Shown piece after piece: positions 10,134 through 11,813 of a stretch of 64,000 nt of DNA. Source of the stretch: Promethearchaeati archaeon (GTDB lineage: Archaea > Asgardarchaeota > Heimdallarchaeia > Heimdallarchaeales > Heimdallarchaeaceae); assembly GCA_013166775.1 (NCBI GenBank), contig JABLTJ010000009.1, positions 35,931-99,930 on the forward strand. The letters are read 5' to 3'. The first letter of the stretch is position 1, and each line of letters starts with the position of its first letter. The notes below the pieces were generated by a model. The model had not been told where the DNA came from. It worked only from the letters and a program-made list of their open reading frames with translations, and made no database searches. The position numbers and the translations under genes are program-made.

Positions 10134-10565
10134 TTATTGCTCTAAAATTTGCCTTGCGAGATTGATTATCAGTCGACTTTCGTAATCGTATAGATCATAA
10201 AAATCTAAAGATCTACAAAACCACATCTTTAGATGATTCTTGGGGATAGGATCGAAGGTGAGTAAAAGAAACACTGCTTGGTAAGGGATTAGATGAGTGA
10301 GAGAAGGAAGATTATCTCTTAACTCCCATACATTATTAAATTTGTTCAAAGCTTTCCATTTCTCATCTTTGATGGAATAGAGATTAGCGAGATAAAGGTA
10401 AGGAAGAGCGGTTTCAGGATAATCGTTAATCAAATCCTTGAGAATAGTTACAGCAGGAGAGAGATGACCAGTCTGAATTGAATTAAGGGAAGTGTCAAGT
10501 AGAACTTGGTAAACCTCATCGATAGAGTCTGGTTGTTCCTCAACTATTATCCATGTCCTCAACAT
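10134..10565 (-). CDS. Small TPR-like protein
   Basis: 'AVTILKDLINDYPETALPYLYLANLY...KALNKF' helical-repeat pattern; start uncertain. Confidence 0.55.
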   Translation of the reverse strand: MLRTWIIVEEQPDSIDEVYQVLLDTSLNSIQTGHLSPAVTILKDLINDYPETALPYLYLANLYSIKDEKWKALNKFNNVWELRDNLPSLTHLIPYQAVFLLLTFDPIPKNHLKMWFCRSLDFYDLYDYESRLIINLARQILEQ

Positions 10566-10642
10566 GATTAGTTTCGGTACACTGAAAGCGAAAAAAGTAT
10601 TTAAGCACAAAGAAAAGTTTAGAATAATTCGGATAAGAAAAA

Positions 10643-10907
10643 GGATTTCTGCCTGAACAGGAAGGGGATTCTGACTCGATGCCTCTGGGGTTTTTTCATC
10701 CTTACGGATGATGGTTGGGGGTTCTGGCAGACAGAAGTTGTCTGTAAATCAGACACATCTGATTCTGGGGATTCGGGCTCAGGAGGTCTTAACTAAGCCC
10801 AATGGGGGTTCAAACCATCTAAAAAGGGGTTCAACCATAGTTCCCGAGATTTACCCTTGGGAAGGGTTGAAGCATCGGATTCTCTTCCTGTTCAGTTTGC
10901 AGTTTCC
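10643..10907 (-). ncRNA. Putative novel structured ncRNA (or DNA hairpin element) of unknown family; strand tentative
   Basis: GC-rich island. The ~40-nt termini pair (ctgaacaggaag/cttcctgttcag; cgatgc/gcatcg). At least five internal hairpins, one closing a GUAA GNRA loop on the minus strand. Minus-strand BRE/TATA at ~10961-10977 and a T-tract right after the 3' end. Confidence 0.65.
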
Positions 10908-10960
10908 TCTTAGATAGCCTTTTACTAAATAACCCCAACTATATTATTTTCTCTTTGAAA

Positions 10961-10977
10961 CTATATAAATGTTTTTC
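10961..10977 (-). promoter_or_regulatory. Candidate archaeal BRE-TATA promoter pointing into the structured element
   Basis: Minus strand gaaaaacaTTTATATAg, with no credible protein-coding start nearby downstream. Confidence 0.45.
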
Positions 10978-11093
10978 TGATTGTAACAGCACCCTCTACA
11001 ATCGACAAAAATCGCGTATTTCACTATTTTTAGCTTTAGAAGGATTTTAGCTATTCTGCGAGCTAATTTCACCTTTTTTCCAATTTAATTTGA

Positions 11094-11813
11094 TTAAAGA
11101 TGACTTTCTCTTGTTTTATTGAATGTTTCTTCTCTTACCATCCTATTGCTCTCATCTATTCTCCTTTGTATTGTAGATGAAACATTGTTGAACTGATTTT
11201 CATCAAATTCGAAATTGAATAGCTTTGATAATTCCAGTAAAATCTGTTTAGCTGCGTAATAACTTGCTACTCCCGGATCACATTCAGCCAATAGTGAGAA
11301 ACACCCATTGAATCCTTTTGAATCACATAATTCTAGTGTTTCTACTACAGTTCCGTATAATATTCCTTCATCCAGAATTTTGACACCATAGTTTGCTAGG
11401 AAAGTTAGCATTTCATCGTTTGTGGTAATCGCGAAACATCTGGCATCGTTTGCTGGATCTTTTAGTACGGGTAAACCTCCCACTGGAATGACATGTGATG
11501 CTCCTTGTTTAATATAATAATCTACTAGCGTTTTGAGAAAGTGTTGAGTGTTGCTGTAAGAGATAGGAATCTCGCATGACATTAGAGCAAGTTTTTCTGA
11601 TTGAAACAATCTTATTGGATGTTCGATTTTACCATCTTTGACTATTGCAACTGGAGGAATTGAGCTTGAATGAATTACTGCAACATGTTCCATCTCTAAT
11701 GCATCAATTAGGAATGCTGACAGTATTGTCCCTATTGCACCACTCCCACTAAAAGATTGAATTACGGGGATGTTTTTCAGGTTCACTTTTTTGATTTCTT
11801 TTATTCTGTCCAT
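11094..11813 (-). CDS. PAC2 family proteasome assembly chaperone (PbaA/PbaB-like)
   Basis: 'FSGSGAIGTI...LIDALEMEHVAVIHS..IPPVAIVKDG..HPIRLF', 'VGGLP'. Confidence 0.85.
   Translation of the reverse strand: MDRIKEIKKVNLKNIPVIQSFSGSGAIGTILSAFLIDALEMEHVAVIHSSSIPPVAIVKDGKIEHPIRLFQSEKLALMSCEIPISYSNTQHFLKTLVDYYIKQGASHVIPVGGLPVLKDPANDARCFAITTNDEMLTFLANYGVKILDEGILYGTVVETLELCDSKGFNGCFSLLAECDPGVASYYAAKQILLELSKLFNFEFDENQFNNVSSTIQRRIDESNRMVREETFNKTRESHL

What the first reader, a model, noticed from the sequence alone, without database searches (positions are those of the whole stretch)
10643..10940. Unrecognised ~270-300 nt multibranch structured RNA
Seen: a long terminal stem (CUGAACAGGAAG/CUUCCUGUUCAG, then CGAUGC/GCAUCG) encloses hairpins CAUCC-GUAA-GGAUG, CAGACA/UGUCUG, AAUCAGA/UCUGAUU, GGGCUUAG/CUGAGCCC and UUCCC/GGGAA, plus a long-range AUGGUUG/CAACCAU pair. 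It is markedly GC-richer than its flanks. The minus strand has a BRE-TATA (10961-10977) and a T-tract after the 3' end. A plus-strand BRE-TATA (~10590-10605) and some better G-U pairs on the plus strand leave the strand uncertain. It lacks the SRP helix-8 and complete RNase P signatures. Inference: a new archaeal ncRNA class, or a folded-DNA recombination site.
Basis: partly seen in the sequence, partly recalled or inferred. Interest (0 to 1): 0.8.

Follow-up and report, generated by a model that had tools for sequence, protein, structure and literature searches.

The report
Circular-RNA gene of Heimdall archaea
This is a real, uncatalogued minus-strand gene for a folded RNA of about 300 bases, found in only one family of Heimdall (Asgard) archaea. 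A conserved tRNA-splicing signal frames it, so it is probably cut out and closed into a 250-base ring, and its 3' end is also where gene cassettes have been inserted.

Summary
It folds better than shuffled sequence on both strands and matches no Rfam family. SRP RNA and RNase P RNA lie elsewhere in this genome.

- **Strand:** minus. A BRE/TATA box sits at a fixed distance upstream in every homologue I read, and a T-tract follows. G.U pairs outnumber A.C pairs 67 to 8.
- **Distribution:** one copy per genome in all five genera of one Heimdall family, at a conserved position (PAC2, RNA, eS30, Elp3). Not found in three other families of the order.
- **Structure:** helices show compensatory changes between genera.
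- **Processing:** the ends form a bulge-helix-bulge motif (4-bp helix, 3-nt bulges). This predicts excision and ligation into a 250-nt ring, window 10896 to 10647. The genome encodes two EndA-domain genes and RtcB. I found no RNA evidence for the joint.
- **Cassettes:** the last 25-55 nt of the gene recur as five same-orientation partial copies at 3817-9036. They bound 0.8-1.9 kb cassettes without an integrase, and relatives hold none to six.

Function is unknown. An invariant loop repeats the 16S 3' end (ACCUCCU) and C-rich linkers recur, which hints at translation control. This scan had already noted homologues in other genomes, and I took the bulge-helix-bulge lead from those notes.

The parts
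10963..10979 (-). BRE/TATA promoter of the RNA gene (minus strand reads AGAAAAACA-TTTATATA)
   Evidence: AAAAA(A/G)-TTTAAATA lies at the same distance upstream (about 75-80 nt before the long stem) in 18 homologues of the genus and in four other genera. The start is predicted near 10939-10941, at a conserved AUAG.
10897..10941 (-). 5' leader, predicted to be discarded. It holds the 5' strand of the outer helix (GAGGAAA, 10903-10909), the 5' strand of the central 4-bp helix (CUGC, 10899-10902) and two nt of the 5' bulge.
   Evidence: Cofolding the two ends gives outer helix, 4-bp helix and 3-nt bulge in almost every variant (all but G027, see full report). The leader sequence varies but keeps its pairing to the trailer.
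10647..10896 (-). Segment predicted to be excised and ligated into a 250-nt ring (joint ...GUUCAGGCAGAA|ACUGAACAGG...)
   Evidence: Cuts are placed after the 2nd nt of each 3-nt bulge, from the usual position of the tRNA intron (my own derivation; the motif is defined in PMC5829648). The motif is conserved with covariation. The circular fold has -83.6 kcal/mol and holds 70 C against 51 G. No RNA evidence for the joint was obtained here.
10884..10895 (-). P1, 5' strand (CUGAACAGGAAG); pairs with 10653-10664
   Evidence: A 12-bp helix, invariant within the genus. Between genera it changes in a compensatory way: CUGGACAGGAAG/CUUCCUGUCCAG, CUGAACAAGAAG/CUUCUUGUUCAG and CCAGAUAGGAAG/CUUCCUAUCUGG.
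10653..10664 (-). P1, 3' strand (CUUCCUGUUCAG); also the core of the repeated insertion site
10872..10877 (-). P2, 5' strand (CGAUGC); pairs with 10677-10682 (GCAUCG)
   Evidence: Pairs 111:462 (UA 14, UG 6, AU 2), 112:461 (GC 20, AU 2) and 113:460 (CG 10, UA 6).
10832..10838 (-). Long-range helix P4, 5' strand (AUGGUUG); pairs with 10711-10717 (CAACCAU)
   Evidence: GGUUG/CAACC is kept in all 27 distinct sequences. It is replaced by UUUGG/CCAAA in the two closed genomes, read by eye.
10775..10800 (-). P6 hairpin. Its loop carries GACCUCCU (10781-10788), whose ACCUCCU repeats the last 7 nt of this genome's 16S rRNA.
   Evidence: The stem covaries: GGGCUUAG/CUGAGCCC, GGCUUUU/AAAAGCC, CAGACUU/AAGUCUG. 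The loop motif is invariant in all five genera. The 16S 3' end reads GAUCACCUCCU.
10697..10764 (-). Peripheral hairpins: P9 at 10697-10710 (only in this genome), P8 at 10728-10744, P7 at 10747-10764
   Evidence: Hairpins are gained, lost or resized between species while the linkers stay fixed. P7 pairs covary (helix 5).
10630..10652 (-). 3' half of the processing motif and the trailer: central helix GCAG (10649-10652), 3' bulge AAA (10646-10648), then the outer-helix 3' strand running into the T-tract terminator, UCCUUUUUC (10637-10645)
   Evidence: Similarity among the partial copies stops right after the T-tract, which marks the end of the functional gene.
9005..9036 (-). Partial copy of the RNA gene's 3' end (insertion-site repeat)
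8157..8213 (-). Partial copy of the RNA gene's 3' end (the longest, about 55 nt)
6288..6331 (-). Partial copy of the RNA gene's 3' end
5238..5283 (-). Partial copy of the RNA gene's 3' end (more diverged)
3817..3851 (-). Outermost partial copy of the RNA gene's 3' end

Best explanation
Window 10941 to about 10637 on the minus strand is a stand-alone gene for a structured non-coding RNA found only in one family of Heimdall (Asgard) archaea.

**Shown here.**
- It has its own archaeal promoter and T-tract terminator.
- It occurs once per genome, at a conserved position.
- It has a multibranch fold whose helices covary.
- Its two ends pair into a bulge-helix-bulge motif: outer helix, 4-bp helix CUGC/GCAG, a 3-nt bulge on each strand, then the 12-bp helix P1.

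**Inferred.** The tRNA-splicing endonuclease (two EndA-domain genes in this genome) cuts in both bulges. RtcB then joins the ends. This would release a 250-nt ring (10896 to 10647) in which P1 is capped by the loop GCAGAAA.

**Function (inferred, weak, about 0.3).** The ring displays an invariant loop that copies the 3' end of 16S rRNA (ACCUCCU). It also carries about six single-stranded GAA(C/U)CCCC linkers. I therefore favour a stable trans-acting RNA that binds G-rich Shine-Dalgarno regions of mRNAs, or factors that recognise the 16S 3' end, and so tunes translation.

**DNA level (repeats shown, mechanism inferred).** The last 25-55 nt of the gene act as an attachment site. Each inserted cassette brings a fresh copy of the 3' end and pushes the old copy outward. 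This left five partial copies over 6.8 kb in this genome.
For: **Strand and ends.**
- The BRE/TATA box is conserved at a fixed distance, and a T-tract or hairpin terminator follows.
- G.U cells number 67 against 8 A.C cells.

**Real structure.**
- Fold z-score is -5.7.
- Nine core pairs change on both sides, against 1.3 +/- 1.0 in shuffles (0 of 500 reach it). Versions with partners slid by 1-3 columns score lower.
- P0, P1, P2 and P6 show compensatory variants between genera.

**Host gene.**
- There is one full-length copy in this genome and one per genome in relatives.
- Model R1 (my covariance model of the conserved core) scored homologues in four genera. A weak match and reading by eye added the fifth.
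- The position is SBP, PAC2, RNA, eS30, Elp3, HTH protein, fibrillarin, Nop5.
- SRP RNA and RNase P RNA lie elsewhere.

**Bulge-helix-bulge.**
- The central helix is always 4 bp, in five variants: CUGC/GCAG, CUGU/GCAG, AUGU/GCAU, CUAC/GUAG and GUGU/GCAC.
- The 5' bulge is always AAA and the 3' bulge is 3 nt.
- The motif is strict in three genera.
- Two EndA-domain genes and RtcB are present.
- Asgard archaea carry the broad-specificity (alpha-beta)2 EndA (PMC5829648) and make circular pre-rRNAs (PMC12918454).

**Translation hint.**
- ACCUCCU equals the 16S 3' end and is invariant.
- Shine-Dalgarno motifs are enriched at -16 to -5.
- GAAYCCCC occurs 10 times in the window against 1.6 expected. 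Four lie in the RNA and three in its partial copies.

**Attachment site.**
- All copies lie downstream of the gene's 3' end and in the same orientation.
- Related genomes hold none to six.
- Cassette content differs between close relatives.
Against: - No RNA data were obtained. My one metagenome scan used a 20-mer that would also match the predicted joint, and none of the 13 contigs carries it. A scan of viral contigs for the joint found nothing.
- In this genus, including this window, the 3' bulge is relaxed: one unpaired A faces it (two in this window). Cleavage therefore depends on a tolerant endonuclease.
- The function is guesswork. A search for mRNA sites complementary to the loop gave only scattered hits, and a 7-mer identity with 16S could be chance.
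- No integrase or other recombinase with a catalytic domain was found in or beside any array. How cassettes enter is unknown.
- Covariation rests on few, closely related lineages.
Confidence: 0.7

Rival explanations
1. It is a conventional linear ncRNA. The terminal helices and bulges are only a closing stem, and the primary transcript of about 300 nt is the mature form.
For: No joint sequence was found in any collection I could scan. The 3' bulge is relaxed in this genus.
Against: The exact 4-bp helix with a 3-nt bulge on each strand is kept through compensatory changes in five genera. The leader and trailer vary apart from their pairing. That is the pattern expected of a processing signal, and it is hard to explain otherwise. 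The enzymes are present.
Confidence: 0.2
2. The element works as DNA. It would be an integron-like platform (attI-like) whose repeated GGGG(A/T)TTC motifs are recombinase-binding sites, and the RNA fold would be incidental.
For: Cassettes bounded by copies of one end lie next to it. The motif recurs. A gene with a recombinase DNA-binding domain lies at the far end of arrays.
Against: Many genomes have the element with no partial copy found, and two (G007, G025) show no inserted genes. No recombinase gene lies beside it. There is a conserved promoter and terminator. G.U asymmetry and compensatory changes preserve RNA helices, including ones far from the insertion site.
Confidence: 0.04
3. It is a rearranged (permuted) or very divergent copy of a known RNA such as SRP RNA, RNase P RNA or 5S rRNA, restored by circularisation as in Thermoproteus.
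For: The precedent is the permuted SRP RNA of Thermoproteus (PMC4731332). Rfam models can miss permuted genes.
Against: A permissive Rfam scan, which should also report partial matches, gave only noise. This genome has a full-length SRP RNA (88 bits) and RNase P RNA (163 bits) elsewhere. ARAGORN finds no tRNA or tmRNA here.
Confidence: 0.03
4. It is a miniature mobile element (MITE) or part of one.
For: Inverted terminal sequences, and partial copies nearby.
Against: There is one full-length copy per genome at a conserved position. The partial copies hold one end only and occur only downstream of the gene. None is dispersed.
Confidence: 0.01

Closest known systems
Circular SRP RNA of Thermoproteus tenax (Plagens et al. 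2015, PMC4731332)
   Same: Both are non-tRNA, non-rRNA structured RNA genes. [quoted passage not shown] Here the same kind of signal frames the gene.
   Different: There the gene is permuted and the ring restores a known RNA. Here the gene is not permuted and the RNA matches no known family. Circularisation is predicted here, not shown.
tRNA-intron circles and circular pre-16S/23S rRNA intermediates of archaea
   Same: Bulge-helix-bulge excision is followed by ligation. The motif is two 3-nt bulges separated by a 4-bp helix (PMC5829648). Circular rRNA transcripts are reported in Asgard archaea (PMC12918454).
   Different: Those are by-products or intermediates of a host RNA. Here the excised part is the conserved, structured product, and the flanks are short and variable.
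tRNA and tmRNA genes as attachment sites of integrative elements (Williams 2002, listed in the references of PMC8813620)
   Same: Direct repeats of the RNA gene's 3' end bound inserted DNA. Occupancy varies among relatives. The gene is restored by the incoming copy.
   Different: The target is an orphan ncRNA. The units are 0.8-2.7 kb (one of 8.7 kb) and mostly hold one gene. No integrase was found in or next to any of them.
Integron cassette arrays (IntI, attI, attC)
   Same: Both have compact, mostly single-gene cassettes in a row at one anchor site. In sense-oriented cassettes the gene stops just before the next repeat.
   Different: There is no IntI gene and there are no attC-type imperfect palindromes. 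The repeats are straight copies of an RNA gene's 3' end.
C-rich regulatory sRNAs of low-GC bacteria (RsaE/RoxS type; from my own knowledge)
   Same: Several unpaired C-rich motifs in an AT-rich genome, where G-rich tracts are mostly ribosome-binding sites.
   Different: There is no sequence relationship. This RNA is much larger and probably circular, and no target has been shown.

Membership tests
RNAs excised at a bulge-helix-bulge and circularised (EndA/RtcB substrates) | Two 3-nt bulges on opposite strands separated by a 4-bp helix, flanked by helices | tested here: met
   In this window: CUGC/GCAG, with AAA bulges at 10896-10898 and 10646-10648. The motif is strict in G025, G026 and G028. 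In this genus one unpaired A faces the 3' bulge (two in this window).
RNAs excised at a bulge-helix-bulge and circularised (EndA/RtcB substrates) | The motif is conserved in homologues through compensatory change | tested here: met
   The central helix has five variants, all 4 bp. The 5' bulge is AAA in all.
RNAs excised at a bulge-helix-bulge and circularised (EndA/RtcB substrates) | The genome encodes the splicing endonuclease and RtcB ligase | tested here: met
   Two EndA-domain genes (94.8 and 50.9 bits) and RtcB (536 bits). Aragorn calls nine intron-containing tRNAs.
RNAs excised at a bulge-helix-bulge and circularised (EndA/RtcB substrates) | The ligated joint is seen in RNA | tested here: inconclusive
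   No joint in the 13 metagenome contigs that match a 20-mer compatible with it. None in viral contigs or in the fetched loci. No transcriptome could be searched directly.
Rfam families (SRP RNA, RNase P RNA, all 4227 models) | Covariance-model score at or above the gathering threshold | tested here: not met
   No hit at gathering score. The best hit at E up to 10 scores 22 bits, to an unrelated Listeria sRNA.
RNA genes used as attB by integrative elements | Direct repeats of the gene's 3' end bound the inserted DNA, and occupancy varies among relatives | tested here: met
   Five partial copies here, six in G001, none in many genomes. The gap to eS30 is about 90 nt in G027 and under 0.85 kb in G007. 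Here it is about 9.5 kb.
RNA genes used as attB by integrative elements | An integrase is encoded in the inserted DNA | tested here: not met
   Pfam and PHROGs scans of cassette ORFs from G000, G001 and metagenome contigs found none.
Integrons | An intI gene beside attI, and attC sites at cassette ends | tested here: not met
   The neighbours are PAC2 and eS30/Elp3. The repeats are copies of the RNA 3' end.
MITE | Many dispersed full-length copies with target-site duplications | tested here: not met
   One full-length copy in 3.85 Mb and one per related genome.

The most novel reading that the evidence does not exclude
The ring is an abundant, nuclease-resistant mimic of the 16S rRNA 3' end. 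It would soak up Shine-Dalgarno leaders or small-subunit maturation and initiation factors, and so set translation in the archaeal family closest to the cultured Heimdall lineages. At the DNA level, the 3' half of its splicing signal would be the anchor of an integrase-less, integron-like system that captures genes for secreted and surface proteins.
Probability: 0.15. Interest if true: 0.85.

Novelty: new variant of a known kind. Interest (0 to 1): 0.72.

Why it matters
Large conserved structured RNAs with no assigned family are rare, and rarer still in archaea. This one lies in Heimdall archaea, a group argued to share ancestry with eukaryotes. It has a clean, testable prediction of its mature form: a 250-nt ring made by the tRNA-splicing machinery. 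As far as I found, the only described precedent for a stand-alone structured RNA gene of this kind is the Thermoproteus SRP RNA.

Its loop that copies the 16S 3' end gives a concrete hypothesis for a circular regulator of translation.

Its 3' end also anchors arrays of small gene cassettes without any recognisable recombinase. That points to an undescribed route of gene gain. The locus also breaks metagenome assemblies, so it is easy to miss. I found no paper describing it.

Tried and rejected
- **Known RNA families.** Rfam at gathering score and at E up to 10 gave nothing. ARAGORN found no tRNA or tmRNA.
- **SRP RNA or RNase P RNA.** Rejected, because both are found elsewhere in the genome.
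- **Plus strand.** Rejected on the promoter, the terminator and the G.U asymmetry.
- **MITE.** Rejected.
- **Leader of plus-strand genes.** I considered that the short repeats were a shared 5' leader or promoter. Rejected: the copy at 8157-8213 lies between two converging genes, and in G001 the copies follow gene ends.
- **Cis-regulator of eS30/Elp3.** Rejected, because the RNA has its own terminator and is now about 9.5 kb (here) to about 19 kb (G001) from them.
- **Mobile element carrying the site.** The six viral-contig matches to an 18-mer are chance matches: no similarity extends beyond it and G+C is 0.45-0.47.
- **RNA evidence for the joint.** The 20-mer metagenome scan, a viral-contig scan and a scan of the fetched loci all found none. 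Two searches for proteins called across the RNA, meant to reach transcript assemblies, found no candidate.
- **mRNA targets of the loop.** Inconclusive.
- **Control motif in the 16S flanks.** An attempt to show a bulge-helix-bulge in the flanks of the 16S gene gave no clear picture from the short flanks held.
- **Other families.** Model R1 found nothing in three other families of the order. The 1.5 kb upstream of Elp3 in G031 and G036 shows no homologue. R1 scores even the same-family closed genomes at only 15 bits, so absence beyond the family is not established.

Full report
**What is there.** Its G+C is 0.44-0.48, against 0.30-0.39 around it. Both strands fold better than any of 100 shuffles, with z-scores of -4.2 (plus) and -5.7 (minus). 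Rfam 15 gives no match at gathering score in the whole window, and only noise at E up to 10 in 10500-11100. ARAGORN finds no tRNA or tmRNA. The same genome has a full-length SRP RNA on contig 54 (88 bits) and RNase P RNA on contig 6 (163 bits), so this is neither.

**Homologues and strand.** A DNA search of 60 relatives found one full-length match per genome across the genus. The closest named record is a 'Candidatus Heimdallarchaeota archaeon' MAG. In the aligned homologues the conserved block ends sharply on both sides.

On the window's minus strand, every homologue I read has AAAAA(A/G)-TTTAAATA about 75-80 nt upstream of the long stem. An AUAG sits where transcription should start. Just after the 3' arm comes a T-tract, or a small hairpin plus T-tract.

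In the consensus helices 67 cells are G.U on the minus strand. Only 8 would be G.U on the plus strand. The RNA is therefore read from the minus strand, from about 10940 to about 10637.

**Structure is under selection.** I built a covariance model of the conserved core (R1; 137 positions). It finds one hit per genome in 19 of 24 genomes of the genus. It also finds hits in three further genera of the same family, and none in 16 genomes of three other families of the order.

The two closed single-contig genomes of the fifth genus carry a divergent homologue at the same position. R1 scores it at only 15 bits, so absence outside the family is not established.

On 27 distinct core sequences, 97.6% of cells pair. 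Nine pairs change on both sides, against 1.3 +/- 1.0 in shuffles (0 of 500). The slid controls score lower.

Between genera the helices change in a compensatory way:
- **P1:** CUGAACAGGAAG/CUUCCUGUUCAG becomes CUGGACAGGAAG/CUUCCUGUCCAG, CUGAACAAGAAG/CUUCUUGUUCAG or CCAGAUAGGAAG/CUUCCUAUCUGG.
- **P6:** GGGCUUAG/CUGAGCCC becomes GGCUUUU/AAAAGCC or CAGACUU/AAGUCUG.

Whole hairpins come and go between species while the linkers stay fixed.

**The frame is a splicing signal.** Earlier notes of this scan, on homologues in other genomes, proposed a bulge-helix-bulge frame. I tested that here. The 5' strand reads outer helix, CUGC, AAA, P1. The 3' strand reads P1, GCAG, AAA, outer helix. That gives two 3-nt bulges on opposite strands separated by a 4-bp helix, which is the published definition of the motif (PMC5829648).

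- The central helix is 4 bp in every homologue, in five variants: CUGC/GCAG, CUGU/GCAG, AUGU/GCAU, CUAC/GUAG and GUGU/GCAC.
- The 5' bulge is AAA throughout.
- Cofolding the two ends gives the strict motif in three genera.
- In this genus one unpaired A faces the 3' bulge (two in this window), which is a relaxed form.
- In G027 the minimum-energy cofold leaves the central helix open, although GUGU/GCAC can pair.

The genome has two EndA-domain genes and RtcB, and Aragorn calls nine intron-bearing tRNAs. Asgard archaea are reported to have the (alpha-beta)2 endonuclease with the insert that confers broad specificity. They are also reported to make circular rRNA transcripts (PMC12918454).

I placed the cuts after the second nucleotide of each bulge. 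That rule follows from the usual position of the tRNA intron, and is my own derivation. It predicts a 250-nt ring, 10896 to 10647, in which P1 is capped by GCAGAAA. The circular fold has -83.6 kcal/mol.

I found no RNA evidence for the joint:
- The 20-mer used in my single metagenome scan also fits the joint, and none of the 13 contigs shows it.
- A viral-contig scan and a scan of the fetched loci were empty.
- Two attempts to reach transcript assemblies through called ORFs found nothing.

Earlier notes claim such joints in sediment RNA for homologues. I could not check that claim.

**Hints to function.** Invariant across all five genera are the P6 loop GACCUCCU, the linkers CCCCAGAA and CAGAACCCC, and CAUCGAG.
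- ACCUCCU equals the last seven bases of this genome's 16S rRNA.
- Shine-Dalgarno motifs are enriched at -16 to -5 of long ORFs. GGAGG occurs 70 times there against 4 in the control window, and GGTGA 136 against 9.
- GAAYCCCC occurs 10 times in the 64-kb window against 1.6 expected. Four lie in the RNA and three in its partial copies.
- The ring has 70 C against 51 G.

A stable RNA that pairs with G-rich ribosome-binding sites, or that decoys factors recognising the 16S 3' end, is my best guess, at about 0.3. A search for extended complementary sites was inconclusive.

**The 3' end as an insertion site.** The last 25-55 nt of the gene recur five times, always on the same strand and only downstream of the gene. 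The copies lie at 9005-9036, 8157-8213, 6288-6331, 5238-5283 and 3817-3851. They comprise the P1 3' strand, GCAG, the bulge and the trailer.

In relatives without copies the gene is followed directly by eS30 and Elp3. Here eS30 is at 949-1170 and Elp3 at 2-913. About 9.5 kb has therefore been added.

- G001 has six copies over 16 kb, and many genomes have none.
- All copies within a genome share that species' own sequence variant.
- A close relative joins the 10134-10610 cassette directly to the SecY cassette.
- Several assemblies break at this gene.

The cargo is NosD/beta-helix proteins, fragments of solute-binding proteins, zinc-ribbon membrane proteins and a SecY paralogue. No integrase or phage family was found. 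No viral contig carries the site.

This looks like serial site-specific insertion in which each cassette supplies a new 3' end. The recombinase is unknown.

**Verdict.** This is a real RNA gene of a new family, read from the minus strand. Very probably it is processed at a bulge-helix-bulge into a ring. Its function is unknown, and it doubles as an anchor for cassettes. I found no paper describing it.

Noticed in passing
window 3863-5149 (-): A 428-aa SecY-family gene stands alone between two partial copies of the RNA 3' end, that is, as cassette cargo. The same cassette is present at about 78% identity in two related genomes.
   Followed up: partly
window 2618-3592 (-); L041:8538-9371; L096:376-927: A protein with only the DNA-binding 'Recombinase' domain of large serine recombinases (weak Pfam hits) lies at the far end of the array in G000, G001 and one metagenome contig. 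DNA matching window 2618-3592 is also present in G013 and G019. It is absent between the RNA and Elp3 in the array-free genome G007. Whether it takes part in cassette insertion is open.
   Followed up: partly
It lies about 30 nt upstream of an ATG at about 10567 of the first cassette gene (ORF 10134-10610), so it is probably that gene's promoter.
   Followed up: no
window 949-1170 (-) and 2-913 (-): The ribosomal protein eS30 gene (Pfam S30, 38.7 bits) and Elp3 are the ancestral downstream neighbours of the RNA gene. Further on in relatives come an HTH protein, fibrillarin and Nop5, so the neighbourhood is tied to translation and RNA modification.
   Followed up: partly
L040 and L041 (G001), L086, L091, L096: NosD/right-handed beta-helix proteins are the commonest cassette cargo. 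Five lie in one 8.7-kb unit of G001.
   Followed up: partly
G000 contig 54, 106870-107176: This genome's SRP RNA scores 88.4 bits, below Rfam's gathering score of 96.5. Standard annotation would miss it.
   Followed up: no
window 10720-10770 (-): The invariant CUUCUGUCUGCCAGAA can pair in three ways. It can pair with the upstream CAGAC (P8), with the CAGAA that follows P6, or within itself (UUCUG/CAGAA). This may be a pseudoknot or a switch.
   Followed up: no
L030, L064, L065 (other genera): Three other genera carry a small GNRA hairpin (GC-GAAA-GC, with a covarying closing pair) between P1 and P2. This genus has lost it.
   Followed up: partly
G003:C161, G011:C113, G022:C310, G006:C170: Contigs of several MAGs end inside or next to this RNA gene. 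That fits strain-level variation or repeats at the locus breaking the assemblies.
   Followed up: no
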